Below are positions 370 through 31,090 of a DNA stretch of 64,000 nucleotides, piece by piece (positions within the stretch are counted from its first letter, which is position 1; the number at the start of each line of letters is the position of its first letter). Where the stretch lies: the IMG/VR virus record IMGVR_UViG_3300030103_003222, positions 1-64,000 of that record; one strand, written 5' to 3'. The stretch is from a virus. The notes under the pieces were generated by a model that saw only the letters and a list, made by a program, of their open reading frames with translations, did not search any database and had not been told where the DNA came from. The translations under genes and the position numbers were made by a program.

Positions 370-1017
370 ATGTCGGATGCCTTCGAGGTCGCGTGGACTT
401 TGCTCAAGTCTGATTTCATGGTCCGCAAAAATGTCATCGGCATGCAAGACGGGACGCAATATAACATGCCCCCGGCTATTGCTTCCATGGCTCAGCGACC
501 TCAGCGGCCTGAGATGATGACGCAGCAGATGGAAGTCCAGCAGCAACAACCGGGATTCTTTGGGAGGTTCAGACAACCAACTACTGAAATGCGAACTACG
601 CAAATCCCCACTGGTGCAAACGTAGTAGGGAGGCGTCCCGGCTACTTCGCAAATGTAAATGCTGGCCCAATTCAGACCAACTCACCACACCCAATGGGTG
701 AAATTGCTGCCAGCCCAGCACCGGGTGCTCAAGTGACCCGTATGCCCCGACCGGGACCTTTCCCCGGAGGTTATTCCTCAAATGCGTCGAGGATGCCGTC
801 CTTCAGCAACTATCAAGGACATTACGGCAGTGGGGTAAATCGTAGTGGGTTCGACGGCGATGGCCCCATAGGCACGCAGCCCGCCACCATCCTTGACCTG
901 CCATACCACGGAACCCGAGGAAACATCCACGACGAGGGTGGGCCGGAGAGAAGTTCAGGGCAAATTCAGCAGGACTATTACGGCGACCAATTTGGACCAA
1001 ATCGGTCTTTCAACTAA
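370..1017 (+). CDS. Hypothetical low-complexity (P/G/Q-rich) protein with N-terminal AW-LLK tag
   Basis: 215-aa ORF starting MSDAFEVAWTLLKS; first gene of a tightly packed + strand cluster. Confidence 0.8.
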   Translation: MSDAFEVAWTLLKSDFMVRKNVIGMQDGTQYNMPPAIASMAQRPQRPEMMTQQMEVQQQQPGFFGRFRQPTTEMRTTQIPTGANVVGRRPGYFANVNAGPIQTNSPHPMGEIAASPAPGAQVTRMPRPGPFPGGYSSNASRMPSFSNYQGHYGSGVNRSGFDGDGPIGTQPATILDLPYHGTRGNIHDEGGPERSSGQIQQDYYGDQFGPNRSFN

Positions 1018-1035
1018 GCAGAAAAGGCGAGGCAC

Positions 1036-1761
1036 GTGACCCCTTTTGACCGGGCGTGGTCCTTGCTCAAGATGGCTCGCTATAGAGCAGGGCCATACGA
1101 GATTTGGGACAGCAACGAAAAAGGGGGCTACGCTGATGGGGACGGCGAGTTCGACCATCTCCCTCAAACCTTCAGCCAGCCAAACTACGTGCGCAACGAG
1201 GAAACTGGTGAGTATGAGCAGCAAGGCGTGAGAGAGCACAGGCAGTATTACCCGATTGGGGCGAACTTTGGCTTCAAGTTCAAACCCGGTAAAGCCATGA
1301 TGACGCCCGAGCAGTTTCACGGACTCGTAGCCAGCCCGCAGCCTGAACACCGCACTGGTCAGCAAAAGGGCATTCTTGAGTCCATGAACCGAGGTGCACC
1401 AATTGCTGCGCCGATTCTAAGGGTCAAGCCCGATGGCAGCGGTTTCAGGGTCGAAGAACACGAAGGCCGCCACCGCATGCAAGCGCTTCGTGATGCGGGT
1501 TTGGGCGACGTGCCAGTCCCAATCGAAATACAGGGAGCGGGGTATCAATACCCCTACGACATGAACAACGAAAAGTTGAGAGAGATGTTGGCGGGTGCCA
1601 CCATTCAACCTCAGTATGGGGTCTACACACCCAGTGAAATGGCCCCCGGCACGGCCCTCTCTCCCGACGGCGACCGAGGACTCCACCCTCTCAACCAGCC
1701 CTTCACCATCTCCGACTTCGACCCATATTGGAACCGAGGTGCATATCATGACACCGTTTGA
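1036..1761 (+). CDS. ParB/Srx-like N-terminal-domain protein with AW-LLK tag
   Basis: GTG start after GAGGC. APILRV...VEEHEGRHRMQALRDAG..VPI resembles the ParB/Srx DGxHR motif. Begins MTPFDRAWSLLK. Confidence 0.65.
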   Translation: MTPFDRAWSLLKMARYRAGPYEIWDSNEKGGYADGDGEFDHLPQTFSQPNYVRNEETGEYEQQGVREHRQYYPIGANFGFKFKPGKAMMTPEQFHGLVASPQPEHRTGQQKGILESMNRGAPIAAPILRVKPDGSGFRVEEHEGRHRMQALRDAGLGDVPVPIEIQGAGYQYPYDMNNEKLREMLAGATIQPQYGVYTPSEMAPGTALSPDGDRGLHPLNQPFTISDFDPYWNRGAYHDTV

Positions 1762-2653
1762 CCGAGCGTGGTCCTTGCTCAAGTCTCGTGACTTTGGCTA
1801 TGAACCGGGCGATTCGCTTTACCGCCCACCCGAGGGACAGGGCAAACTACCGCGTTCGGTGCCCTACACCGAGTTTGGTCAGCAACAGACACTCAGTGAG
1901 TTCGACCCATCGTTTTCACCCACCTTCGTTCGCCCCCGGACTCGGGCTGAATTGTTCAGGGCATACAGAGAAGGCCTTACCGGCGGAGAAGAGGGTTACA
2001 GAATAGAGGAAGATGACGACGTTCAGCAGCCCGACAAACCAACGCACGTCAAGCGCATCCACGACCCTGAGCGTCATACCATGCACTACGTTTTGATGGG
2101 TGAGCGTGGCCCTCTTTCAAAATTGAGTGCAGGGGACATGTATGACCAAGAGGGTGGTCTTATCGACTTCAGCAGCGAAACTCACCCAGCACATATGCGA
2201 CAGGGGCACTACGGAACGCTCATCAATTCTCTTGTGCAAGCGGGCTATCCCGTTCACTCAATCAATCGAAACCACATGTCCCACCCCTTCCACACGAGGT
2301 TTCAACGCAATCTCCCAGCGGACATAAGACCCGGCATCACGGACGACAAACAGACCTCCTTTGAATGGGGACTCGACGTGGACGCTGATGACCCCACAAA
2401 TCGCCTTTTCTCATATGAGCGCAAGCCGATGAGGGAACTAACGCCGGAAAACTGGGGTGCGCTGCGCCCAATGAGGAGTGATTTTGTCCCACTCCGTGGG
2501 TTTGAAACCAAACGACCTGACATATCGAGGCCTGATGTGCGCTATTTCCAAGGAGTAGATGACCCTCACCAGCAGGTCCTTTTCAACTACCAAATCAACC
2601 CTCAAAATGAGTTTGTCCTCGCTCCTAACGATGCCTACAGGTATCAGAATTGA
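1748..2653 (+). CDS. Putative GNAT-like acetyltransferase-domain protein with AW-LLK tag
   Basis: Start reassigned to ATG 1748 (GAGGTG SD upstream; begins MTPFDRAWSLLKS). THPAHMRQGHYGTLI resembles GNAT motif A. Paralogous to 57711..58928. Confidence 0.6.
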   Translation: MTPFDRAWSLLKSRDFGYEPGDSLYRPPEGQGKLPRSVPYTEFGQQQTLSEFDPSFSPTFVRPRTRAELFRAYREGLTGGEEGYRIEEDDDVQQPDKPTHVKRIHDPERHTMHYVLMGERGPLSKLSAGDMYDQEGGLIDFSSETHPAHMRQGHYGTLINSLVQAGYPVHSINRNHMSHPFHTRFQRNLPADIRPGITDDKQTSFEWGLDVDADDPTNRLFSYERKPMRELTPENWGALRPMRSDFVPLRGFETKRPDISRPDVRYFQGVDDPHQQVLFNYQINPQNEFVLAPNDAYRYQN

Positions 2654-2694
2654 GGCGGTGCATTGAAATGGTGTTGCCCTATACGCCTGACCAT

Positions 2695-3195
2695 ATGAGT
2701 TACGCTTTCGAGGCCGCTTGGACCCTGCTTAAGCAGGAGCAAGAGGACGAGGGCAATCCCGTGACTCACATGGGTCGACGTGGCCGCGCACGTGCTGAAA
2801 GGCGCGCAGAGCGAGCACGGATGCGCGGCGGCGGTAACTCGCCTTTGATGAACGAAACCGCAGCAGCGCGCCGAGAGGGGCGACGCACGCCGCTTGAAGG
2901 CTCGTTCATTATGGGGCCTCTGCCCCATATCAGGGGGCAGGCTCACCCTCTCGACGCGCTTCCGTTCAGAGAGGACCATCCCGATGTCAAAGTCCATGAC
3001 AGGACCATGGGTCGAATGCGCATGCCCACAACCGGACCTGTGACTGTGCCCGGTCAGGCTGAAAACATGAACACACCCATGAGCGATGAAGAGTTCGAGG
3101 GTCTGATGCGGCATCAGTCCCTGCTGAAACCCCAGCCAAATCCTTTCGAGACAAGGCGTATGCAAATCGGTGACTTCCCAGTCCGACAACGGTGA
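2695..3195 (+). CDS. Hypothetical protein with AW-LLK tag
   Basis: Start reassigned to ATG 2695 (MSYAFEAAWTLLKQ); R/M/P-rich. Confidence 0.75.
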   Translation: MSYAFEAAWTLLKQEQEDEGNPVTHMGRRGRARAERRAERARMRGGGNSPLMNETAAARREGRRTPLEGSFIMGPLPHIRGQAHPLDALPFREDHPDVKVHDRTMGRMRMPTTGPVTVPGQAENMNTPMSDEEFEGLMRHQSLLKPQPNPFETRRMQIGDFPVRQR

Positions 3196-3200
3196 TACAC

Positions 3201-4163
3201 ATGACTGCCTTCGACACTGCATTCACCTTCCTTCGTGATTCCGTCATCGAGAAGAACGCCCCGTCCATCGAACAGATGCGCAATTTCGTTGCAGCAAATG
3301 AAAACCACCCCGACCCTGCTATTCGCGCAAAGGTCGAAGAGGTCTATCAGCACCTTACGTCCATGATGAGCGGTCGTGAATCTCTTCAGCCTCAAATGCC
3401 TGACGTGCACGCCATCGAGGCTGCGCGTCGTGAAGCGATGGCTCGCCGTTCGTTCGATGCTGCACCGCCCATGGCCCAAATGGTGGAGGGTTCGCCCGAA
3501 ACACCGGGTATGCGCATGACCCCCGGCGGTCAAATGGCCCCGATGCCTGTGGAACAAACGCCGCGCGTTGATGCAACGAGGCCAGCCAACCCGTTTAGGG
3601 GCGAGCGCGGGCGAATGAAAAAAGCAGAGCGTGTTCAGCGTCGCGAGCGCCGCACCCAGCCCGGTGAAAACAGCATGCTCACGCCGGAAGAGGCAGAAGG
3701 CGAGCAGATTCAACAAGAGCGAGAGAGCGGCATTCGCCCACTGCCGCAGTTCATGCGCCCCATGAGCCGCGCTCCTCCCCGCCCTGCAGAACCTGACACA
3801 AATGAGCCACCCAACCCATTCCCGATGAAGCGCAAGGGTTCACCCATGGACATCGCGTTTGCGATGCTTAAGTCGCAATACCGCTACCCGGACCCTCAAC
3901 CTCATGAGGAAACAATCGACCCAAATGAGATGCTGCGTCGCATCGAGGCAGACCGTGAAGCCCAGCGGATGAGAATGGAAGTCGGCATGCCCGACCCCCG
4001 CGTTAAGGACGTTTCTCACATTGACGAGATGATGCCCGAATACATGACGCCCGAAGAAAGGTTGGCGCTCGAAGAAATTCTGATGCGCAACCACGCAACT
4101 GGGCAGCCCTCCAACCCATTCAAGGGCGAACGTGGCAAAGCCTATGCCTCTGAAGGCTTGTGA
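3201..4163 (+). CDS. Hypothetical protein with two tag-like motifs and PxNPF repeats
   Basis: GGTGA SD before ATG 3201. N-terminal MTAFDTAFTFLR and internal PMDIAFAMLKS. Confidence 0.8.
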   Translation: MTAFDTAFTFLRDSVIEKNAPSIEQMRNFVAANENHPDPAIRAKVEEVYQHLTSMMSGRESLQPQMPDVHAIEAARREAMARRSFDAAPPMAQMVEGSPETPGMRMTPGGQMAPMPVEQTPRVDATRPANPFRGERGRMKKAERVQRRERRTQPGENSMLTPEEAEGEQIQQERESGIRPLPQFMRPMSRAPPRPAEPDTNEPPNPFPMKRKGSPMDIAFAMLKSQYRYPDPQPHEETIDPNEMLRRIEADREAQRMRMEVGMPDPRVKDVSHIDEMMPEYMTPEERLALEEILMRNHATGQPSNPFKGERGKAYASEGL

Positions 4164-4172
4164 GGGCTGAAC

Positions 4173-5390
4173 TTGCCCGCTCCAGCAGTTGCCGTATTGG
4201 CAGGCGGTGGTGCCGCAGCAGGCGGTGGAGCCGCAGCAGGCGGAACGGCAGCGGCCGGTGGTGCTGCGTCAGGTAGTGCCGCTGGAGCAACAGCCGCTGG
4301 TGGATTCAGCCCCAAGAAGGTTCTCGGCGCGGCGGGCGCTGGTTTGTTGGCTGGCGGTGGCAACAGCACTTCGCGACAGGAAGGGCGCATGAACGACATG
4401 GCTCGCAGCGGCGCGGGCACGGGGCAGAAGTTCGGCGGAGGAGTGGGAGTGGCTAAAGCGCAGCAAACGCTGTTCGGCTACAGCCGACCTCACATCGAGC
4501 AGGCCATGTCGCCCGATTCAAACACGGTCATCATCGCATCAAAACCCGGTGGCCAAGATTTGCCTCTTGACGCGCAGTCGCAGCGGCATGACGAGATGCA
4601 CGGTGAACTGACTGAACTCGCTGCCGCCAATCCTGCACTCCGTATTCTTAGCGGCAAAGGCCGCAGCAAAGAGTGGGGCGACGAAAACTCGTTTGCTTTG
4701 ACCAACGTGCCCGACCATCTGATGCCGCTGATACGTCAAATGGCTGGTCGGTATAAGCAGGACAGCATTCTGCATTCCCCGGTCGGGACGTCGGATGCCT
4801 TCTTCACCAAACCCGGCGGTCAACGGACTGGTGCGCTGACAGACCCGGTTCTATCGAACGAAGAGCCTTCGGATTTCACGCAATTCGGTGGCGGCAACCT
4901 CGTTTTCGGTGGTTATCGCGACATGAAGCAGGCCAGTGAGGCGATGGATGCGGCGTGGCGTATGCTCATCAAAGAGCGCAAGTCTCCAGAAGCCATGCAG
5001 CACAAGCGTGAGTATGACAAGGCCTACGAGTCAACGCCTGAGCGCGTCAAATACCGCGTCGACCTCAACCGAGAGCGCCGACGTCGCGGGATTATGGGCA
5101 GCCGCGACCACATGGACGTCAGCCATACCGAAGGTGGCAAATTGACGCTTGAGCCGGAGCATTCCAACCGAGCGCGGCACTTCAAGGAGCAGGGAACGCT
5201 CCGCAGACTGGCAAAATCGGCCAAAGACGACATCGAACTGCTCCGAAACCTGCTGCAAGGCCCGATGGACGAGCAAGACCGCCTGATTGCGACCAAACTT
5301 GCTGAAAACATCAAGGAAAAGGACGACTCAGAGGCTGAAATGGCCGAAGAAGACACCTATCAGCACCTCGTGCGACCTTCGCATGATTAA
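4173..5390 (+). CDS. Multidomain protein: Gly/Ala-rich N-terminus, SAM-lyase-like domain, tag, HNH-like domain
   Basis: TTG start after GAGGG. VIIAS...QRHDEM...GRSKEWGDENSF...RQMAGRYKQDSILH recalls T3-type SAM lyases. DVSHTEGG...HSNRARH recalls a minimal HNH. Confidence 0.6.
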   Translation: MPAPAVAVLAGGGAAAGGGAAAGGTAAAGGAASGSAAGATAAGGFSPKKVLGAAGAGLLAGGGNSTSRQEGRMNDMARSGAGTGQKFGGGVGVAKAQQTLFGYSRPHIEQAMSPDSNTVIIASKPGGQDLPLDAQSQRHDEMHGELTELAAANPALRILSGKGRSKEWGDENSFALTNVPDHLMPLIRQMAGRYKQDSILHSPVGTSDAFFTKPGGQRTGALTDPVLSNEEPSDFTQFGGGNLVFGGYRDMKQASEAMDAAWRMLIKERKSPEAMQHKREYDKAYESTPERVKYRVDLNRERRRRGIMGSRDHMDVSHTEGGKLTLEPEHSNRARHFKEQGTLRRLAKSAKDDIELLRNLLQGPMDEQDRLIATKLAENIKEKDDSEAEMAEEDTYQHLVRPSHD

Positions 5391-5491: not shown

Positions 5492-6100
5492 ATGTGGACC
5501 TCAGATGTGGACAAGCCAGTGGTCAACATGGATGACGAGCAACACGACGCTGAAATCCGCCTCATGGGCCTCATTTTGGCTCAAAGTGCCCTCGTGGGCG
5601 TCGCCGTCGGCGTTTTTGACGCCGATGTGTGGCTGAAGAACGACACAACTTGGCTGAACGGCTTCACTTACGCGATGGGGGCGTTTTTCGTGCAGGGAAT
5701 CGCCTATTACGTGTTCAAAATGTTCTTTGAGCAGTCCATGAGGGAGCGAGCGCGTGCCAGTCAAATCGACAGGCAGCGCACCAACAAATACCGCTCCATG
5801 CAGCAATCTTTCGACTCTCGACGCTCTGAGATGGAAATCCGCATGCAGGAGGCCCAATTGGAGGCCGAATTGCGCTGGATGGAGGCAAATCCGGGCAAAA
5901 TGCCGCCTTCATGGGGCGTTCACGGTGGCTCACCCTCGATGGTGACGTCCTATGACCAGCAACGTCAAGACAACCTGCGCATTCCCACTCATCAAGCGCA
6001 AACCCAGCAACCGCTGTCGCTGGGAGCAGCAGAAGAGGGCGAAATCCCACTCAAAAAGGACGGCACGCCCGACAAGCGCTATCAGAAGAAGAATGAGTGA
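5492..6100 (+). CDS. Membrane protein with two TM helices, coiled coil and C-terminal KKDGTPDKRY motif
   Basis: Hydrophobic segments LMGLILAQSALVGVAVGVF and GFTYAMGAFFVQGIAYYVF, followed by a charged helical region. Confidence 0.8.
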   Translation: MWTSDVDKPVVNMDDEQHDAEIRLMGLILAQSALVGVAVGVFDADVWLKNDTTWLNGFTYAMGAFFVQGIAYYVFKMFFEQSMRERARASQIDRQRTNKYRSMQQSFDSRRSEMEIRMQEAQLEAELRWMEANPGKMPPSWGVHGGSPSMVTSYDQQRQDNLRIPTHQAQTQQPLSLGAAEEGEIPLKKDGTPDKRYQKKNE

Positions 6101-6105
6101 CAATC

Positions 6106-6360
6106 ATGGGTCGCATCTTCAAAACGGTGTCCGACAACGCAACTGAAGAGACGCTACGCGCCATTCACCTTGCGAACACGGTCGACACCACCTATGAGCG
6201 TGCTTGGGGTTGGGTGAAAACGCTTCTTGCCTCACTCATCACGGCGTTGACGGTTAGCGGTATCGAGTTCTTCAACCCGGAAGTCAGTTTCTATGAATCT
6301 TCAGTGGACTGGCTCGTGGAAAAACTCAGGGACTTCGCGAACTGGCTGAAATGGTGGTGA
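6106..6360 (+). CDS. Small membrane protein
   Basis: One hydrophobic helix (TLLASLITALTVSGIEFF) and an amphipathic W-rich C-terminus; directly follows the upstream gene. Confidence 0.7.
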   Translation: MGRIFKTVSDNATEETLRAIHLANTVDTTYERAWGWVKTLLASLITALTVSGIEFFNPEVSFYESSVDWLVEKLRDFANWLKWW

Positions 6361-6370
6361 AGGTGGCGTC

Positions 6371-7096
6371 ATGGTTGAGCCTGCAGGGACGGCACTGGTT
6401 GGCGCTGCCGTGTGGGGACAAGCCCTCTACCACTCGTGGCGACCAAGACGAGTCGGAATCTACGGAGCGCCCCTCGTCGGAAAAACAACCCTCGACCGAT
6501 ACATGACAACGCCCGGTGAGATGGAAGCCATCTCTGATGAGGACCGGACAACGCACGGCCGACTGCTCGGCGTTGCCGGCCCTTACCGTATGCCCAGTCC
6601 GACGCGCAAGCGCATCTCGTGGAATGGCGATAAGCGAGTTGTCTTTTCAGCCGACATTGGTGGACAAGAACGATTTTGGAATCTGTGGATTGAGGATGCA
6701 GTCACTCGGCGCGTCGAAGCCATCGTCTACATGTTTGATGAGCGGGCTTTCAAGGGCGGAGAAAGCGGACTACAGCAGGTTGGCGGCTTTCGTTTCCTCG
6801 TTGACCGTTTGATAACGCGCGACTACCGCTACCGCTCGCTCAGAGCACGGCTGAAGGGTAAGCGGTATCATCCCAAACTTGTCATGCTCGTGGCCAACAA
6901 AGCCGACCGCTTCTTTGACGACACGGCATCGAAGTTGTGGCATGACGGGCGTATTGGTGAACACAAAGTCTTCGACCCTTTCAGAGACGACCTCATTCGT
7001 TTGCAGAAAGCCGGCATCCCGACCAAGCGCTCGTTCATGGCAACGCGCATCGGGTGGAACGTTGAGAAGACCATGCTCGACGTGCTGACCTCATAA
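6371..7096 (+). CDS. Small Ras/Arf-like GTPase
   Basis: G1 GAPLVGKTT, G2 RTT, G3 DIGGQ (ERFWNLW), G4 NKAD, G5-like MAT; hydrophobic N-terminus; AGGTGG SD. Confidence 0.85.
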   Translation: MVEPAGTALVGAAVWGQALYHSWRPRRVGIYGAPLVGKTTLDRYMTTPGEMEAISDEDRTTHGRLLGVAGPYRMPSPTRKRISWNGDKRVVFSADIGGQERFWNLWIEDAVTRRVEAIVYMFDERAFKGGESGLQQVGGFRFLVDRLITRDYRYRSLRARLKGKRYHPKLVMLVANKADRFFDDTASKLWHDGRIGEHKVFDPFRDDLIRLQKAGIPTKRSFMATRIGWNVEKTMLDVLTS

Positions 7097-7109
7097 GTGA
7101 CCTCAATCC

Positions 7110-7118
7110 TTTTATCAA
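7110..7118 (+). promoter_or_regulatory. Archaeal TATA-like box (probable leaderless transcript)
   Basis: TTTTATCAA in a short intergenic gap 20-28 nt upstream of ATG 7138, which lacks a clear SD. Confidence 0.5.
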
Positions 7119-7137
7119 GAGCGACGGTGGACAAAAC

Positions 7138-7335
7138 ATGGCGGCAAAGCGAAAGACGACCTCACTCACTCCAACCAGTGAGCAGTCGCGCACGCTTCGC
7201 ACGACCATCCCGATTTGGATTGTCGACCATTTCGGATTGGAGGCAGGCGACCGCGTCGAGTGGTCGTTTGAGGTGAAAGACGGAAATATCATCGTCGTCA
7301 TGTCTCCATCAGGGGGCGAAGACATTGATGCTTAG
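7138..7335 (+). CDS. AbrB/MazE/SpoVT-family DNA-binding protein
   Basis: SRTLRTTIPIWIVDHFGLEAGDRVEW is the swapped-hairpin signature. Confidence 0.85.
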   Translation: MAAKRKTTSLTPTSEQSRTLRTTIPIWIVDHFGLEAGDRVEWSFEVKDGNIIVVMSPSGGEDIDA

Positions 7336-8251
7336 ACCGCAACAAGCGCAAGTGCCACTTTACGGGGCAAATGAAGGACACCTTGCCGCTTTGGCACAAC
7401 AGGGTAATCTGCAGTTGACGCAAGCCGCGCTTGCTGAAATGATGTCCGCACAGCAGGGTATGCAGCAAATGGCTGCTCAAAAAAATCTCGAAGTGCCGAA
7501 AGTCAACTTCTACCCAAGTAAGCACGCCGACCCACACAAGGCTCGTAAGCGTGACATTCGCCAAGCCTACCGTCTTCTCCAGCCTGCGAAGCGGTCATGG
7601 TTTAGTCCGATGCGCTGGGCCGGTAACAAATACCGGTATAACAAGGACACAGGCGTCTGTGTTGTCGACGGCTGCGACTGTGCTGAACTCATCCGCCACG
7701 AAAACCTGTATGAGCGCATTTGTGACGAGGAAACGGGGCGCAGTCTCTACGAGATGTATTGGCAAAACCCGGTGACTGGGCAGGCTGAGGCCTTCATCGC
7801 GCGTGACAAAGTGACAAGCGGCAAGAAGATGCGAGGCACCTATTGTCCTGAACATCTTCATCTCTTCCATTTGCTGAAGAAGTGGGAGGCTGAAGAGGAC
7901 AAGCAGAACGAGATGAACCCTCGCCGTCTGCGCGACAAGGTCAAGCGCGGCGTGTCCATCGTGACTGTGCCTGTGGCTGCGGTTAGGTCAAAGGAAGTAA
8001 TCCCCCCTCTCTTCGTCAAATATGAGTCGTGGTTCGATGAACTGGCTCGTGATGCCGGTCGCACCAAGGCCATCCGCATCACTCGCGACATCGACCCACT
8101 GACAGGTGAAAATGACGTGGTGCGAGTGACCTTCGATAGCCGCTACATGCGGTGGGAAATGGAGCAAGCCAATCTACCGACTCCGCAATTTCAGGCCATG
8201 ATGCAGCAGCAGAACCTTGATGTCTCCATGGTCCCTCCGATGGGTGAGTGA
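7328..8251 (+). CDS. Hypothetical protein, probably Zn-binding
   Basis: CVVDGCDC and YCPEHLH motifs; Q-rich N-terminus; overlaps the upstream stop. Confidence 0.75.
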   Translation: MLRPQQAQVPLYGANEGHLAALAQQGNLQLTQAALAEMMSAQQGMQQMAAQKNLEVPKVNFYPSKHADPHKARKRDIRQAYRLLQPAKRSWFSPMRWAGNKYRYNKDTGVCVVDGCDCAELIRHENLYERICDEETGRSLYEMYWQNPVTGQAEAFIARDKVTSGKKMRGTYCPEHLHLFHLLKKWEAEEDKQNEMNPRRLRDKVKRGVSIVTVPVAAVRSKEVIPPLFVKYESWFDELARDAGRTKAIRITRDIDPLTGENDVVRVTFDSRYMRWEMEQANLPTPQFQAMMQQQNLDVSMVPPMGE

Positions 8252-8252
8252 C

Positions 8253-8849
8253 ATGTTCAACTTCGGCGGTCAGCGCCCTCAATCCGGTTTGAACCTCTCA
8301 GCCACCGGTGCTCCTCAGCAGCAGTGGCAGCAACAGCCACAGCAGGGCTATGGCGTGTTTGGCGCACAGCAGCCGCAGTGGCAGCAACAACCACAGCAGC
8401 AAGCACCCCCGCCTCCCAGTGAAATGGAATTGATGAACGCCCTTCTGCAGTCCCAAAACCCAATTCATCGCTTCATCGCCAGCGGTGGTCTTGCTTCAGT
8501 CATTGACTTGGTCGCAACGGCCACGTCTCTTTCTGTTCTGAGCGTTCTCAAGGACGCCACGTTTGTGCTCGATGATGACGAGGGTGCGATGAAACTTGAC
8601 ACCGCTTCTCTGCCTGACAACCTCAAGACGCTGAGCGCTGAAAACGTCGGCATGTTGCTCAATCAGATGGTCAACAACAGCCAACAGACCATCCAGCAAG
8701 CCGAAATGCAACGTCAGCAAATTCTCGCCATGAGTCAACAGTCGGCCATGGGGGCAAAACTCAGCGCCGCTCTCGCTGACGAAAACACGTTGGAGAAGGC
8801 GGGCAATTTCTTCGGTAACGTGGCCGGACGAGCCTTGGGAAGTCGGTGA
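8253..8849 (+). CDS. Q-rich hypothetical protein
   Basis: GGTGAG SD before MFNFGG; QQQW/QQPQQQ low-complexity N-terminus and helical C-terminus. Confidence 0.75.
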   Translation: MFNFGGQRPQSGLNLSATGAPQQQWQQQPQQGYGVFGAQQPQWQQQPQQQAPPPPSEMELMNALLQSQNPIHRFIASGGLASVIDLVATATSLSVLSVLKDATFVLDDDEGAMKLDTASLPDNLKTLSAENVGMLLNQMVNNSQQTIQQAEMQRQQILAMSQQSAMGAKLSAALADENTLEKAGNFFGNVAGRALGSR

Positions 8850-28498: not shown

Positions 28499-29875
28499 GT
28501 GCTACTCCGAAGCAGCAATCAGTCCGGCCTCACTCTCCTCAAGGGGAGCAGTGACCTCGTCGTTGCTGGCTATGCTTCAGTAGAACTCGTAGACAAACAG
28601 GGGGACTTGATTACACGGTCGGCGCTTAAGGACGCGTTCAAGAAGTTCATGTCCGACCCCAAGTATTCAAACGTCCAATTAGCACACTCAAACATTCAAG
28701 TCGGAGAAGTAATACCGTCATACACAGACAACGAAGGGAGGTTTTGGAAGAGCGAGGTTGATGATGCGGGAATGTTCGTCGTCGTCAAACTGAGAAATGA
28801 CATCGAGAAAGCCCGAGAAGTGGCCGCCGAGATTCGTAAAGGAAACCTTGCAGGATTCAGCATCGGGGGACAAGCGTTCAAGCGAGTTCACAAAGCAGAC
28901 GCGAATCACGGCTCATATCAGGAAATCTCCAAACTCGAACTTCACGAAATCACAATCTGCGAAAAAGGAATCAACCCCGAAGCCACATTCAAAATCCTAA
29001 AGGAAGACACTGAAAACAACAAGGTGAGTAAAATGACTGACGATGTAATGAACCAAATGAACAGCGTGTTGGAGCGACTGGAAGGTCGCCTCGATGACAT
29101 GGAAAAGGGCATGCCTCCTCAACTGAAGGAGCACATGGAAGACAAGAAGTCCAAGAAGGACGACAAGGAAAAGGCCGCATATAAGGCTGAAGCCGAAGAG
29201 GACGAGAAGGAGAAGAAGGACGAGAAGAAGAAGTCCGAGTTCTCCGACGTCATCACGGCCGAATACCTCGACTGGATGGAGAACACCCTCAAGTCCGCTG
29301 GTGTGGACACTGATGGTGCTCGCGCCCACTTCGACGGCATCACCAAGGCCAACCTCGGCTCCACCCCCGAGTCCATCGGTGACGGCGCTTCCTACTTTGC
29401 TGGGCAGGTCAACGGCCGTGCTCAGGAAGGCGGCTCCCCGTCCACCAACGCTCTTGCTCGCGCCGGCCTCTCTCGTGGCGGCGGCGGCGAAGTCAGCAAG
29501 GGTGACTTCCTCACCTCCATTGACCCCGTCAGCGCCGAAGAGGCCTACGAGGTCTTCAAGGCCGCTAAGCAGGAAGAAGAACTCCGCAAGGCCCTTGAAG
29601 GAAACTTTGAGCAGCGCTACACTCATGAGCGCACGGTCGAAGTTCAGAAGGCTCAGGCCCAAGCGTTTGACCCTCGCGGTCCCCTCGATGAAGTCATGAA
29701 GGCGCTCGGCGCCCTCAATGAGCGCATCGACAACCTGTCTACCGGCGGCGGCACCACGCTCGCCAAGTCGGCTGACGCTGCCCCGACGGTCGCTGTCCCT
29801 GAGACGGCTGACCTCGCCAGCATGTCATGGGATGAGGTCCACTCGCTCGCGAACCGAGCGATTCGTGGAGAGTGA
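28499..29875 (+). CDS. HK97-family prohead protease fused to a scaffold domain
   Basis: VAGYAS..VDKQGD, LAH, GFSIGG, LHEITIC..GINPEA; charged coiled-coil C-terminal half. Confidence 0.92.
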   Translation: MLLRSSNQSGLTLLKGSSDLVVAGYASVELVDKQGDLITRSALKDAFKKFMSDPKYSNVQLAHSNIQVGEVIPSYTDNEGRFWKSEVDDAGMFVVVKLRNDIEKAREVAAEIRKGNLAGFSIGGQAFKRVHKADANHGSYQEISKLELHEITICEKGINPEATFKILKEDTENNKVSKMTDDVMNQMNSVLERLEGRLDDMEKGMPPQLKEHMEDKKSKKDDKEKAAYKAEAEEDEKEKKDEKKKSEFSDVITAEYLDWMENTLKSAGVDTDGARAHFDGITKANLGSTPESIGDGASYFAGQVNGRAQEGGSPSTNALARAGLSRGGGGEVSKGDFLTSIDPVSAEEAYEVFKAAKQEEELRKALEGNFEQRYTHERTVEVQKAQAQAFDPRGPLDEVMKALGALNERIDNLSTGGGTTLAKSADAAPTVAVPETADLASMSWDEVHSLANRAIRGE

Positions 29876-29911
29876 GCAATCACCAAACACACAAAATGAG
29901 GAGTGAATAAT

Positions 29912-31090
29912 ATGGCACGAAACTACGTCCGAACTGTTACCGACATGGAGCGCTATTACTACGGCGCCGGAAACGCGATGGGATATTCCTACAGCGGCTC
30001 TGAATTGCTCAAGGCTGACGCACCGATGCTGTCCACCACTGGTGGCACCTATCAGGCCATCTACGGCCGCAAAGTGTGGTCCCAATTGAACCAAGAGTTC
30101 AACGCCTTCTCCATCCTTCCCAAGAAGCCTTGGGAGCGAAGTGGATGGCGCGTCATCACCGCCAAGCCTAACGGCGGCTCTCTGAGCGGCGGAATCGCTG
30201 AGAACGGCACCCTGCCGGAAACCATCAAGCCTACCTTCCAGCACGTTGCTGCGAAGCCCAAGACCATCGCTCACACCTTCGACCTGAGCGAAGTCGCCAT
30301 CTTCTTGTCCGACAAGGACGACGGCCTCGGTGACATGCGCGCCGTGATGAAGGAAGAGATGGGTAAGCACCACGCTGAGATGGTGAACCTGATGCTCACC
30401 ACCGACGTCAGCACCGTTGCGGGCAACAACTTCGAGTCCCTCGACCGCATTACCGCTGCCGACGGTGGCTCCAGCCCCTCCAACAACGCTGGTCTGAAGA
30501 CGGCTGGCGGCAACCAACACGTTGACGCCGCCTCCGACCTCGACATCTACAGCATCGCCCGCGCCTCAAACTCGTGGTCCCACGCTGAGATGAACTGCGC
30601 CAACGACACCACGGCGGGCAACAAGCGTGTGCTCTCCCTCGACTTGCTCGACACGATGTTCCAGCAGATGTGGGAGCGCGGTGGCAACCCCAAGGTCATC
30701 CTGACGGGCTACGACACCCTGATGCGCCTCCAGCAACTCTTGCAGGCGCAGCAGCGCTTCATGGAAGAGAAGCGTGTGACGCCCACCTACAACGGTGTGA
30801 AGGGTGTTCCCGGTATCGAAGCCGGTTTCATCGTCGCTACCTACAACGGTGTGCCCATCATCCCCTCGAAGGACGTCAACGACGACGATGGCCTCGCCCG
30901 CATGTATTTCCTCGACACTGACTACCTCTACTTCAGCACGGCCATCCCCACGCAATACTTCGAGTCCGGCATCGAGACTGGCGACCCATTCGCCATCAAC
31001 CGTCTTGGTCAGGAAGGCCTCTACCGCACGATGGGCGAGGTTTGGACGACTTTCTTTGGAGCGCAGGGCCAAATCCGCGACCTTAAGTGA
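29912..31090 (+). CDS. Major capsid protein (HK97 fold)
   Basis: Follows the protease; GAGGAGTGA SD; strongly biased codons; GGIAENG, PKVILTG, TYNGVPII, MYFLDTDYL. Confidence 0.92.
   Translation: MARNYVRTVTDMERYYYGAGNAMGYSYSGSELLKADAPMLSTTGGTYQAIYGRKVWSQLNQEFNAFSILPKKPWERSGWRVITAKPNGGSLSGGIAENGTLPETIKPTFQHVAAKPKTIAHTFDLSEVAIFLSDKDDGLGDMRAVMKEEMGKHHAEMVNLMLTTDVSTVAGNNFESLDRITAADGGSSPSNNAGLKTAGGNQHVDAASDLDIYSIARASNSWSHAEMNCANDTTAGNKRVLSLDLLDTMFQQMWERGGNPKVILTGYDTLMRLQQLLQAQQRFMEEKRVTPTYNGVKGVPGIEAGFIVATYNGVPIIPSKDVNDDDGLARMYFLDTDYLYFSTAIPTQYFESGIETGDPFAINRLGQEGLYRTMGEVWTTFFGAQGQIRDLK

What the first reader, a model, noticed from the sequence alone, without database searches (positions are those of the whole stretch)
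4458..4935. SAM-lyase (T3 SAMase)-like domain embedded in a tagged polyprotein
The segment between VAK|A and the tag follows the motif order I recall for T3 SAMase: VIIAS (VLVSA), QRHDEM (SRHRHM), G..KE..DENSF (G.YRE..EEKT), RQMAGRYKQDSIL (RLA..WEQDCVL), FTQFG (FTID.FG). Phage SAM lyases deplete SAM and counter type I R-M and BREX. A virion-delivered version in an archaeal virus would act at the moment of DNA entry.
Basis: partly seen in the sequence, partly recalled or inferred. Interest (0 to 1): 0.8.

Follow-up and report, generated by a model that had tools for sequence, protein, structure and literature searches.

The report
SAM-lyase-like cargo domain in archaeal-type virus
A marine tailed virus carries a divergent copy of the phage T3 enzyme fold that destroys S-adenosylmethionine, built into a modular protein that looks made for loading into the capsid, so it may be delivered ready-made with the viral DNA.

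Summary
They belong to the SAM-lyase (PF23780)/DUF3293 superfamily.

- **Fold.** An AlphaFold2 model made without templates (pLDDT 78.6) has nine strands and two long helices. In an all-against-all search of 48,161 PDB chains, only T3 SAM lyase reached Z>=8 (Z 13.1, 132 residues, rmsd 3.0). The runner-up scored 7.0.
- **Conserved residues.** The three residues reported as strictly conserved in active SAMases (T3 G55/E68/Q94) are present as G163, E171 and Q196. They are invariant in 62 of 62 aligned domain instances.
- **Differences from T3.** The active-site Tyr is replaced by Ser165, and an invariant Trp168 sits three residues before the Glu. The window sequence is below both Pfam cut-offs. 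Sequence profiles alone do not reach any solved SAM lyase.
- **Context.** The domain is one exchangeable module in tag-delimited ("...A[FW]xLLK|") multi-module proteins. These are encoded just left of the head genes of a magrovirus-like virus with an S78 prohead protease.

SAM cleavage, protease processing and virion delivery are inferred, not shown. The T3-type fold is a monomeric barrel, not a PII-like trimer. Other first-reader notes on this genome describe the same tag/cleavage system. I rate this a new variant of a known kind, interest about 0.6.

The parts
4173..5390 (+). Whole ORF, 405 aa plus stop. It has a TTG start with GAGGG 7 nt upstream; a gene call in the database starts at Met73 instead (P0001, 333 aa). 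The order of parts is leader, SAM-lyase-like domain, tag, conserved C-terminal module, acidic tail.
   Evidence: Homologues P0002 and P0003 keep the 'MPAPAV...' N-terminus, which favours the upstream start.
4173..4457 (+). N-terminal leader, residues 1-95, rich in Gly and Ala (28 G and 27 A of 95). It ends in GVGVAK, directly before the domain.
   Evidence: There are weak leads to internal-virion-protein families only: phrog_342 E 1.9e-5 and PF24072 T7_gp14 in 2 of 17 homologues at E 0.056.
4458..4922 (+). SAM-lyase/DUF3293-superfamily domain, residues 96-250. The predicted fold is T3-SAMase-type: nine strands and two long helices.
   Evidence: Model m6388b6dc1b2a, pLDDT 78.6, pTM 0.74. Foldseek PDB top three are all T3 SAM lyase, E 1.4e-4 to 9.8e-4. 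VIA-align Z 13.2/13.1 against the next best 7.6. The wide search found one chain of 48,161 with Z>=8. Pfam.
4659..4691 (+). Loop G163-R-S165-K-E-W168-G-D-E171-N-S173. G163 corresponds to T3 G55 / Svi3-3 G56. S165 stands where T3 Y57 / Svi3-3 Y58 is. W168 is invariant in this family. E171 corresponds to T3 E68 / Svi3-3 E69. S173 corresponds to Svi3-3 S71.
   Evidence: Alignments; column counts; roles of the residues from Guo 2021 passages and the T3 mutants.
4758..4766 (+). Q196-D197-S198, corresponding to T3 Q94-D95-C96 and Svi3-3 Q104-E105-S106 (the loop that binds the methionine moiety).
   Evidence: literature.
4938..4973 (+). Tag EAMDAAWRMLIK: an amphipathic motif ending in hydrophobic-hydrophobic-Lys, and a putative targeting/cleavage signal. 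Compared with P0002, P0003 and P0005, a module is missing here, so the tag is fused directly to '...LIK|ERKSPEAM'.
4974..5207 (+). Highly conserved basic C-terminal module (residues 268-345, phrog_6437). It is shared by more than 100 otherwise different modular proteins. The predicted order of elements is helix-helix-hairpin-helix. Its function is unknown, with only an HNH-like lead.
   Evidence: (73% mean column identity); no PDB fold match.
370..4163 (+). Five upstream genes. Each starts with, or contains, the same tag (M..F[DE].A[WF].LLK). With the ORF above they form one cluster of tag-bearing genes.
   Evidence: Tags at 391, 1054, 1766, 2716, 3219 and 3855; sequences.
28499..31090 (+). 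Prohead serine protease (S78) and HK97-type major capsid protein. Both have N-terminal '...LLK|' sites (TLLK|GSS, SELLK|ADAP). They are the presumed processing and loading machinery.
   Evidence: Pfam; sequences.

Best explanation
Residues 96-250 of the protein encoded at 4173..5390 are a real but divergent member of the SAM-lyase (PF23780)/DUF3293 superfamily. They have the T3-SAMase type of fold: a nine-stranded barrel with two outer helices.

The domain keeps the residues that hold SAM in its reactive conformation in the characterised enzymes: G163, E171 with S173, and Q196-D197-S198. I therefore think it most likely binds SAM, or a close sulfonium derivative, and cleaves it into 5'-methylthioadenosine plus homoserine lactone. 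The invariant Trp168 would take over the aromatic role of the missing Tyr.

The domain is one exchangeable module of a leader-cargo-tag-C-module protein. This protein is encoded in a cluster of tag-bearing genes at the left edge of the late/structural region of a magrovirus-like tailed virus. The most likely life history is as follows. The amphipathic tags ending in hydrophobic-hydrophobic-Lys direct the protein into the procapsid. The S78 prohead protease cuts after the Lys, which would free the domain starting at A96. The enzyme then leaves the capsid with the DNA and lowers host SAM before SAM-dependent defences act.

Shown here: the fold, superfamily membership, residue conservation, modular architecture and synteny. 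Inferred: catalysis, substrate, cleavage, packaging, ejection and host. My odds are about 0.9 for homology and fold, about 0.5 for SAM lyase activity, and about 0.45 for capsid packaging and delivery.
For: **Fold.**
- The AF2 model was made without templates, from 10 sequences: pLDDT 78.6, 9 strands and 2 long helices.
- Foldseek against the PDB gave 3 matches at E<=0.001, all T3 SAM lyase chains (7ock_K 1.4e-4, 8bb1_E 4.6e-4, 7ock_J 9.8e-4). Svi3-3 followed at 3.4e-3 and 5.1e-3.
- VIA-align gave 7ock_J Z 13.2 (132 of 149 residues, rmsd 3.0) and 8bb1_E Z 13.1; the next entry scored 7.6.
- The search that does not depend on Foldseek covered 48,161 chains. Exactly one had Z>=8: 7ock_L at 13.1.
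- BFVD gave 32 matches at E<=0.001. These include proteins annotated as S-adenosyl-L-methionine hydrolase and a DUF3293 protein.

**Sequence.**
- PF23780 hits 14 of 17 homologues and DUF3293 hits 9 of 17, at E<=1.
- Relatives pass the curated cut-offs: the L008 domain scores 29.2 bits on PF23780; L001, P0147 and P0145 score 25.3, 30.9 and 29.1 bits on DUF3293.
- A profile of the family, searched against 1.84 billion proteins, gave 60 hits at E<=1e-3. I scanned 10 of its 20 weakest hits. All 10 pass the PF23780 and/or DUF3293 cut-offs, 8 of them PF23780.

**Residues.**
- G, E and Q are the only invariant columns in a 20-sequence alignment that includes T3.
- They are 62/62 in 62 domain instances from 56 proteins. 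Ser at E+2 is 56/62 and D/E at Q+1 is 47/62.
- In the literature these are the three strictly conserved residues (Guo 2021 passages). T3 E68Q/Q94A is catalytically dead.
- An aromatic residue stands either at G+2 (21 instances) or at E-3 (39), never at both.

**Context.**
- 22 of 37 family representatives have the helix tag directly before the domain, 4 more have hydrophobic-hydrophobic-Lys, and 8 have a Lys.
- P0147 is simply tag plus domain.
- Relatives are giant ORFs with up to 8 or more tag-separated modules.
- There are seven tags in the six consecutive genes at 370-5390.
- The MCP and the protease carry LLK| sites, and an S78 protease is present.
- In 16 of 20 related IMG/VR loci the gene is followed by the same neighbours leading to the terminase.
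Against: - The window sequence itself is below both Pfam gathering scores: 17.2 vs 28 bits for PF23780 and 19.1 vs 25 bits for DUF3293.
- Sequence searches do not reach any solved SAM lyase: phmmer found 0 hits, profile A3 found 0 hits at E<=10, and the wider profile A6 without T3 found none at E<=1.
- hhalign to T3 alone is weak: probability 0.5, E 0.11; probability 5.6, E 0.0069.
- The Tyr that packs on the gamma carbon and sulfonium is a Ser here. Svi3-3 Y58F has 5-fold lower activity and a destabilised trimer.
- The Gly-to-Glu loop has 7 residues between the Gly and the Glu, against 12 in T3.
- The Trp-for-Tyr swap may be a single clade-level event, and I could not inspect the model's coordinates.
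- The closest Pfam neighbour by score for the window domain is DUF3293, whose function is unknown (0 papers).
- A shared fold does not show function.
- There is no direct evidence for cleavage, packaging or ejection. The tag pattern count in the genome (11) is only about twice that of shuffled sequence (mean 5.15); it is the clustering and register that carry the argument.
- tblastn of the domain against 50,697 GenBank phage records found nothing, so no cultured system is available.
- The host is unproven. The chaperonin scan was uninformative.
Confidence: 0.55

Rival explanations
1. The domain is a DUF3293-type relative of SAM lyases that does something else. It might bind or cleave a different adenosyl or sulfonium compound, for example the CRISPR signal SAM-AMP, acting as an anti-CRISPR. 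Or it might only bind a nucleotide-like ligand without catalysis.
For: The window domain scores slightly better on DUF3293 than on PF23780 (19.1 vs 17.2 bits). The catalytic-site Tyr is absent and a Trp lies in the loop before the Glu. In C. botulinum SAM-AMP lyase a T-loop Trp (W64) stacks on the extra AMP, and only the Glu and Gln are structurally shared with SAM lyase (sections read). The SAM-AMP lyase 9gab appears in the Foldseek list at E 0.11.
Against: By far the best structural match is T3 SAM lyase (Z 13 against 6-7 for everything else). The E-x-S and Q-[DE]-S motifs match the SAM-contacting residues of Svi3-3. The paper itself says W64 is not conserved among SAM-AMP lyases, and it sits 7 residues before the Glu, not 3.
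Confidence: 0.25
2. The domain is an active SAM lyase, but the protein is not a capsid cargo. It is made late and works inside the infected cell, for example to keep progeny DNA unmethylated or to shut down host methylation. The tags would then be linkers or interaction motifs rather than targeting/cleavage signals.
For: There is no experimental link between the tags and the capsid. The classical T3 SAMase is a free early protein (passages; T3 gene order). Some family members lack a helix tag: 8 of 37 have only a Lys, and standalone forms such as P0131 and P0139 exist.
Against: The domain almost always starts right after a Lys that ends a conserved amphipathic motif (26 of 34 N-terminally complete representatives). 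The same LLK| ending precedes the mature parts of the MCP and the protease. The genes lie on the structural-gene strand upstream of the terminase with conserved synteny. Structural look-alikes occur inside large 'structural' and ART-PolyVal-like phage proteins, a class proposed to be packaged (Iyer 2017 passages).
Confidence: 0.3
3. The similarity is a chance match of a common alpha/beta sandwich, and the segment is an ordinary structural or linker part of an internal head protein.
For: Direct sequence comparison with T3 is weak. PDB sequence searches are negative. Ferredoxin-like folds are very common: many Z 5-7 hits appear.
Against: Z 13.1 over 132 residues, with no other chain above 7.0-7.6. 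The family profile reaches bona fide PF23780 members in a 1.84-billion-protein library. G, E and Q are invariant at exactly the published catalytic positions.
Confidence: 0.03

Closest known systems
Bacteriophage T3 SAM lyase (SAMase, gp0.3; PDB 7OCK, 8BB1; Pfam PF23780)
   Same: It is the best structural match: Z 13.1-13.2, 132-133 residues aligned, spanning T3 residues 3-153. It has the same element count, nine strands and two helices. T3 G55, E68 and Q94-D95 correspond to G163, E171 and Q196-D197.
   Different: Identity in the structural alignment is about 11-12%. T3 Y57 is Ser165 here, and a Trp168 is added. There are 7 rather than 12 residues between the Gly and the Glu. The T3 N-terminal MetK-binding residues have no evident counterpart. 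Here it is a module of a 405-aa late-region protein, not a free 152-aa first early protein. The window sequence is below the PF23780 cut-off.
Svi3-3 SAM lyase (PDB 6ZM9/6ZNB; Guo et al. 2021)
   Same: It shares the ferredoxin-like core (Z 6.2-6.4, 95 residues). It also shares the ligand-binding pattern G...E-x-S...Q-[DE]-S (passages compared).
   Different: Svi3-3 is a PII-like trimer with active sites between subunits. The model here is a T3-type closed barrel. The Tyr58 equivalent is missing.
DUF3293 (Pfam PF11697)
   Same: It is the best-scoring Pfam family for the window domain (E 0.002). Relatives L001, P0147 and P0145 pass its cut-off. The DUF3293 members I looked at (P0152, P0153) share the small-residue-plus-Trp loop.
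   Different: DUF3293 covers only about 73 positions of the core and has no known function (0 papers). The window sequence is below its cut-off.
SAM-AMP lyase of type III CRISPR systems and its phage homologues (PDB 9GAB; Chi et al. 2025)
   Same: It belongs to the same superfamily, with the catalytic Glu and Gln conserved and a Trp in the loop before the Glu.
   Different: It is trimeric. Its Trp is at a different spacing and is not conserved. The structural match is weak (Foldseek E 0.11).
Virion-packaged anti-defence and host-modifying proteins: polyvalent proteins (Iyer et al. 2017), T4 internal proteins with a capsid targeting sequence, P1 Dar proteins
   Same: These are multi-domain phage proteins encoded next to head genes and predicted or shown to be packaged and injected with the DNA (passages). 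Processing by a head protease at short motifs is what I recall for T4 and phiKZ-like phages (see also the listing). A Foldseek look-alike of this domain lies inside an 'ART-PolyVal-like' protein.
   Different: The tag here (…[DE]xA[FW]xLLK|) and the Lys-specific sites differ from the T4 and phiKZ motifs. The virus is magrovirus-like. SAM-lyase or DUF3293 domains are not mentioned in the main text of the polyvalent-protein paper (supplements not seen).

Membership tests
SAM lyase family (Pfam PF23780, T3 SAMase type) | Score at or above the Pfam gathering cut-off (28 bits) | tested here: not met
   The window domain scores 17.2 bits, E 0.005; the whole protein scores 15 bits. The relative L008 domain scores 29.2 bits and T3 gp0.3 scores 143.2 bits.
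SAM lyase family (Pfam PF23780, T3 SAMase type) | T3-type fold: nine-stranded barrel with two outer helices | tested here: met
   The model has 9 strands and 2 long helices. Z is 13.1-13.2 to 7OCK/8BB1, and this is the only chain of 48,161 with Z>=8.
SAM lyase family (Pfam PF23780, T3 SAMase type) | Strictly conserved Gly, Glu, Gln (Svi3-3 G56/E69/Q104; T3 G55/E68/Q94) | tested here: met
   G163, E171 and Q196. These are the only invariant columns in A4 and are 62/62. Literature.
SAM lyase family (Pfam PF23780, T3 SAMase type) | Aromatic residue two positions after the Gly (Svi3-3 Y58, T3 Y57) packing on the sulfonium and gamma carbon | tested here: not met
   Ser165 stands at that position. 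The family has S/A/G/T there and an invariant Trp three residues before the Glu instead. Whether Trp168 reaches the same place could not be checked.
SAM lyase family (Pfam PF23780, T3 SAMase type) | Cleaves SAM to MTA and homoserine lactone | not testable with these tools
   Needs an enzyme assay.
Svi3-3-type SAM lyase (PII-like trimer) | Homotrimer with active sites at subunit interfaces | not tested
   No oligomer prediction was run. The monomer model closes into a T3-like barrel, and Svi3-3 matches only the core (Z 6.2-6.4).
DUF3293 (Pfam PF11697) | Score at or above the Pfam gathering cut-off (25 bits) | tested here: not met
   The window domain scores 19.1 bits, E 0.002. Relatives L001 (25.3), P0147 (30.9) and P0145 (29.1) pass.
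Capsid-targeted, protease-processed head cargo (T4 internal-protein / polyvalent-protein kind) | Encoded with head genes in a virus that has a prohead protease | tested here: met
   The S78 protease, portal, terminase and MCP are on the same strand. Synteny is conserved in 16 of 20 related loci.
Capsid-targeted, protease-processed head cargo (T4 internal-protein / polyvalent-protein kind) | Short conserved targeting/cleavage motif at module borders, shared with the capsid protein's own maturation site | tested here: inconclusive
   The tag stands directly before the domain in 22 of 37 representatives, and hydrophobic-hydrophobic-Lys in 4 more. The MCP and protease have LLK| sites. The cleavage itself is only inferred.
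Capsid-targeted, protease-processed head cargo (T4 internal-protein / polyvalent-protein kind) | Protein present in virions and ejected with the DNA | not testable with these tools
   Needs virion or procapsid proteomics; there is no cultured virus.
Magroviruses (viruses of Marine Group II / Poseidoniales archaea) | Caudoviral head module plus own replication module (PolB, clamp loader, etc.), often a chaperonin, and a genome of about 65-100 kb | tested here: met
   The contig is 82,761 bp. The description of the group is in the passages.
Magroviruses (viruses of Marine Group II / Poseidoniales archaea) | Phylogenetic placement with named magroviruses, or a host link to Poseidoniales | tested here: inconclusive
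   No tree was made. The terminase's best named hits are Bacteroides phages at 27% identity. The chaperonin scan gave only a 50% match on a 9.6-kb contig of a 'Parvibaculum' MAG and a 37% match to an Altiarchaeales MAG.

The most novel reading that the evidence does not exclude
Magrovirus-like archaeal viruses load their capsids with a changeable set of enzymes by means of a short address tag (…A[FW]xLLK). The tag doubles as the prohead-protease cut site. One of these cargos is a ready-made SAM lyase with a rebuilt active site (Trp in place of Tyr), which is ejected with the genome and strips the host of SAM before SAM-dependent restriction or BREX-like systems can fire. This would be the first pre-packaged SAM-depleting counter-defence, and a natural, programmable capsid-loading code.
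Probability: 0.3. Interest if true: 0.85.

Novelty: new variant of a known kind. Interest (0 to 1): 0.62.

Why it matters
- **How SAM lyases are deployed.** The known phage SAM lyases are free early proteins that must first be expressed. A version carried in the capsid would act from the moment of DNA entry, and would extend SAM depletion as a counter-defence to viruses of abundant uncultured marine archaea.
- **Enzymology.** The family shows that the SAM-lyase active site tolerates moving its aromatic residue (Tyr after the Gly, or Trp before the Glu). This is a testable point. It also links DUF3293, a family with no known function, to a known chemistry.
- **The tag system.** The tag-delimited architecture around the domain may be a general capsid-loading code with uses in protein delivery. 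It deserves its own test.

Tried and rejected
- **Sequence searches against solved structures found no SAM lyase.** These were phmmer of the whole protein (0 hits at E<=10), profile A2 of 7 domain sequences (0 hits at E<=10), and the wider profile A6 of 21 sequences without T3 (no SAM lyase at E<=1). In one search the listed 'Bagel' designed-propeller hits come from summed repeats of about 2.5 bits each, and I treat them as spurious.
- **One search is not evidence.** That profile (A4) contained T3 itself, so its hit to 7OCK is circular.
- **hhalign of the family against the single T3 sequence was weak**.
- **GenBank phages.** tblastn of the domain against 50,697 phage records gave no match at E<=0.01.
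- **The conserved C-terminal module could not be identified.** There was no Pfam hit for the window protein at E<=1. DUF5872, seen in P0100 and P0103, turned out to be a different N-terminal module. The AF2 model has pLDDT 70. Foldseek against the PDB gave nothing better than E 1.6. The protein atlas gave only a sub-0.9 lead to HNH families.
- **Upstream tag-bearing genes** gave no Pfam hit at E<=0.1. The GNAT-like part of the L008 fusion is below cut-off (17.5 vs 20.7 bits).
- **Host assignment through the chaperonin failed**.
- **Trp168 in the model.** I could not see the model's coordinates, so whether Trp168 occupies the place of the Tyr is untested.
- **Literature.** 'DUF3293' is held by 0 papers. 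'SAM lyase' together with 'internal virion protein' is held by 3 papers, seen as a listing only; by their titles all three are genome descriptions of T3/T7-like or Vibrio phages. The main text of the polyvalent-protein paper has no 'SAMase', 'S-adenosyl' or 'DUF3293'. Three magrovirus papers have no 's-adenosyl' or 'polyprotein'. Supplementary files were not consulted and could hold domain lists that bear on this.
Full report
**What is there.** The finding lies in one ORF, window 4173..5390 on the + strand (405 aa). It has a TTG start with GAGGG 7 nt upstream. The database copy of this gene is called from Met73 (P0001), but close homologues keep the 'MPAPAV...' N-terminus, so I take the long form as real. 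The parts are:
- a Gly/Ala-rich leader (residues 1-95) ending in GVGVAK;
- the segment in question (96-250);
- a short amphipathic motif, EAMDAAWRMLIK (256-267);
- a very conserved basic module (268-345);
- an acidic tail.

Its recollection of the T3 motifs agrees with T3 gene 0.3 as I fetched it (NC_003298, L012:901-1356).

**Is it a SAM-lyase-like domain? Sequence evidence.** Taken alone the sequence evidence is real but weak.
- Pfam PF23780 (S-AdoMet_lyase) hits the whole protein at E 0.024 (15 bits, cut-off 28).
- The isolated domain hits PF23780 at E 0.005 (17.2 bits). DUF3293 (PF11697) hits the same stretch at E 0.002 (19.1 bits, cut-off 25).
- Among 17 aligned homologues, 14 hit PF23780 and 9 hit DUF3293 at E<=1.
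- Some relatives pass the curated cut-offs: the L008 domain scores 29.2 bits on PF23780, and L001, P0147 and P0145 score 25.3, 30.9 and 29.1 bits on DUF3293. T3 gp0.3 itself scores 143 bits on PF23780.
- A profile built only from the window and nine IMG/VR loci (A3) was searched against 1.84 billion representative proteins. It found 60 proteins at E<=1e-3.
- Of the 20 weakest hits I scanned the 10 shortest single-domain ones. All 10 pass the PF23780 and/or DUF3293 cut-offs, 8 of them PF23780. The family is therefore linked to bona fide SAM-lyase family members through significant intermediate hits.

Results against this reading:
- phmmer and two profile searches against all PDB sequences found no SAM lyase.
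- hhalign against the single T3 sequence is weak (probability 0.5, E 0.11; probability 5.6, E 0.0069).
- The hit is circular, because that profile contained T3.

**Fold evidence.** The fold evidence is strong.
- An AlphaFold2 model of residues 94-250 was made from the 10-sequence alignment without templates. It has pLDDT 78.6 and pTM 0.74, with nine strands and two long helices.
- T3 SAMase is described as a nine-stranded barrel with two outer helices (passages).
- Foldseek against the PDB gave three matches at E<=0.001, all T3 SAM lyase chains (1.4e-4 to 9.8e-4, TM 0.52-0.66). The Svi3-3 SAM lyase followed at 3.4e-3 and 5.1e-3.
- VIA-align gave Z 13.2 (7ock_J: 132 of 149 residues, rmsd 3.0) and Z 13.1 (8bb1_E). 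The next entry scored 7.6.
- In the search that does not rely on Foldseek, exactly one of 48,161 representative chains reached Z>=8. It was T3 SAMase at 13.1, and the runner-up scored 7.0.
- Against predicted viral structures there are 32 matches at E<=0.001. They include proteins annotated as S-adenosyl-L-methionine hydrolase and a DUF3293 protein. They also include segments of large proteins named 'structural protein' and, at E 3.3e-3, 'ART-PolyVal-like'.
- As far as I recall, the AF2 weights predate the release of the SAM-lyase structures (2021), so the model is not a memory of them. That point is recalled, not tested.

**Catalytic residues.** According to passages of Guo et al. 2021 (PMC7877911):
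- Only three residues are strictly conserved among active SAMases: Svi3-3 G56, E69 and Q104.
- E69 and Q104 hold the amino group of SAM. S71 contacts the ribose. The backbone of E105 and S106 holds the carboxylate. Y58 packs on the gamma carbon and sulfonium.
- E69Q/A nearly abolish activity, while Y58F costs five-fold.

In T3, E68Q/Q94A is catalytically dead (preprint 10.1101/2023.02.27.530186, passages).

In a 20-sequence alignment of the window family, the intermediates and T3, the only invariant columns are G163, E171 and Q196 (protein numbering). They align with T3 G55, E68 and Q94. In 62 domain instances from 56 proteins aligned to a profile, G, E and Q are each 62/62. Ser two residues after the Glu is 56/62, and D/E after the Gln is 47/62. 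That alignment is fitted to a profile built from 21 of these sequences.

The window has E171-N-S173 and Q196-D197-S198, which reproduces the Svi3-3 pattern.

The difference is the Tyr. The window has Ser165 there, and its family has S/A/G/T. An invariant Trp168 lies three residues before the Glu, in a loop with 7 rather than 12 residues between the Gly and the Glu. Across the 62 instances an aromatic residue stands at G+2 (21 instances) or at E-3 (39), at neither in 2, and never at both. This fits a relocated aromatic residue. It could also be one clade-level change, and I could not inspect the model's coordinates.

A Trp in the equivalent loop of the C. botulinum SAM-AMP lyase stacks on the extra AMP (sections 20-21 of PMC12255297). 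A different substrate therefore remains a live rival.

**Oligomeric state.**
- Svi3-3 is a PII-like trimer.
- T3 SAMase is reported as a monomeric barrel bound to MetK, or as a dimer when free.
- The model here is T3-type, and Svi3-3 matches only its core (Z 6.2-6.4).
- I ran no oligomer prediction.

**Architecture and context.** The domain is a module.
- In relatives it sits in ORFs of up to 1,200 aa or more. These are made of unrelated modules separated by a repeated motif such as GEPMDIAFQLLK.
- Of 37 family representatives, 22 have this helix tag directly before the domain. Four more have hydrophobic-hydrophobic-Lys, 8 have a Lys only, and 3 are N-terminally truncated.
- P0147 is just tag plus domain. 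P0131 and P0139 are free-standing.
- Three AT-rich contigs fuse the domain to a weak GNAT-like region next to the terminase and portal.
- In the window the same tag begins, or lies within, the five preceding genes (positions 391, 1054, 1766, 2716, 3219 and 3855) and follows the domain (4938).
- The window protein lacks a module that P0002, P0003 and P0005 carry between this tag and the C-terminal module.
- The contig (82,761 bp) encodes a large terminase, a portal, an S78 prohead serine protease and an HK97-type capsid protein on the same strand. The capsid protein and the protease have '...LLK|' near their N-termini.
- In 16 of 20 related IMG/VR loci the gene is followed by the same membrane-protein and GTPase genes leading towards the terminase.
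- The right arm has PolB, a clamp-loader-like ATPase, ERCC4, a PD-(D/E)XK nuclease and a Cpn60/TCP-1 chaperonin. This fits the description of magroviruses (PMC5434244, passages).
- Placement and host are not proven.

**How it most likely works.** The fold, the residue set and the modular, tag-bounded setting next to head genes are shown. The rest is inferred, in four steps.
1. The tags take the protein into the procapsid.
2. The S78 protease cuts after the Lys. HK97's own capsid protein is cut after a Lys, as I recall.
3. This frees a domain of about 17 kDa starting at A96.
4. The domain leaves with the DNA and cleaves SAM.

A rough estimate of my own uses the Svi3-3 turnover of 9.5 per second and an assumed pool of 10^4 to 10^5 SAM molecules per small cell (recalled order of magnitude). 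On those numbers about 100 packaged copies would empty the pool in tens of seconds, while a few copies would need many minutes. High copy number would therefore be required for an effect at entry.

The closest concept in print is the 'polyvalent protein' class and the T4/P1 packaged anti-restriction proteins (PMC5512222, passages). That paper's main text does not mention SAMase or DUF3293. Three magrovirus papers mention neither S-adenosyl compounds nor polyproteins. Supplements were closed.

**Verdict.** Because the Pfam cut-offs and the Tyr are not met, I file it as a divergent member of the SAM-lyase/DUF3293 superfamily with a T3-type fold, not as a proven SAM lyase. I rate it a new variant of a known kind. 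Other first-reader notes on this genome (the Lys-site and tag notes) describe the same tag and cleavage idea. I saw the sites they name but did not test cleavage.

Noticed in passing
window 370-5390 (+): Six consecutive genes carry seven copies of one amphipathic tag (M..F[DE].A[WF].LLK). Five copies are at N-termini (391, 1054, 1766, 2716, 3219) and two are internal (3855, 4938). None of the five upstream proteins has a Pfam hit at E<=0.1.
   Followed up: partly
window 4974-5207 (+); also L002, L004-L007, L009, L014-L022: The C-terminal module (KERKSPEAM...DVSHT.GGKLTLE.EHSNRARHFK..GTLR) has 73% mean column identity across 11 viral loci. It ends more than 100 otherwise different modular proteins. 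The model (pLDDT 70) is helix-helix-hairpin-helix. The motif looks HNH-like, but there is no PDB fold match and only a sub-0.9 atlas lead.
   Followed up: partly
window 4938-4980 compared with P0002/P0003/P0005: The window protein lacks a module of about 130-150 aa that its closest relatives carry between the tag and the C-terminal module. The junction (…AWRML|IKERK) looks like a deletion between two tag-like ends, which points to module exchange by recombination at the tags.
   Followed up: partly
L001:1-3615 (IMG/VR contig of 108,650 bp): An open frame of more than 1,205 aa has at least eight tag-separated modules. One of them is the SAM-lyase-like domain. Others, by eye only, look ParB-like (…IIAGHHRM…) or GNAT-like (Pfam E 0.071, below cut-off).
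   Followed up: partly
L008, L010, L011 (AT-rich IMG/VR contigs): Here the domain is N-terminal and has no helix tag. It is fused to a weak GNAT-like region (17.5 bits, cut-off 20.7). It lies about 2.3 kb upstream of terminase and portal genes that are 37% and 46% identical to the window's.
   Followed up: partly
BFVD matches of model m6388b6dc1b2a: The same fold appears as a segment of large phage proteins: a 1,231-aa 'structural protein' of a Flavobacterium phage, a 1,477-aa 'ART-PolyVal-like' protein and a 769-aa cyanophage P-TIM40 protein. SAM-lyase-like modules in big virion-type proteins may therefore be widespread in bacteriophages too.
   Followed up: no
window 5492-15113 and related loci: The block of membrane protein, Ras-like GTPase and four more genes between the cargo cluster and the terminase is conserved in order in 16 of 20 related loci. 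The GTPase is 62-88% identical.
   Followed up: partly
window 16621-17454 (+): A basic protein with a DUF6321 C-terminus (E 2.1e-16). The same C-terminal part (about 75% identical) sits right after the polyprotein gene in L004, L016, L017, L019 and L020, so its position is variable.
   Followed up: no
L013 (contig 63001-82761), minus strand: The replication arm holds a Cpn60/TCP-1 chaperonin (E 2e-114), ERCC4 with HhH, a PD-(D/E)XK nuclease, PolB and a clamp-loader-like ATPase. The chaperonin's best cellular match (50%) is on a 9.6-kb contig binned as 'Parvibaculum sp.', which may be a mis-binned viral contig.
   Followed up: partly
L012 (phage T3, NC_003298: 901-1359): The RefSeq record names the T3 SAM lyase gene 'SAM-dependent methyltransferase', which is a mis-annotation of gene 0.3.
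   Followed up: no
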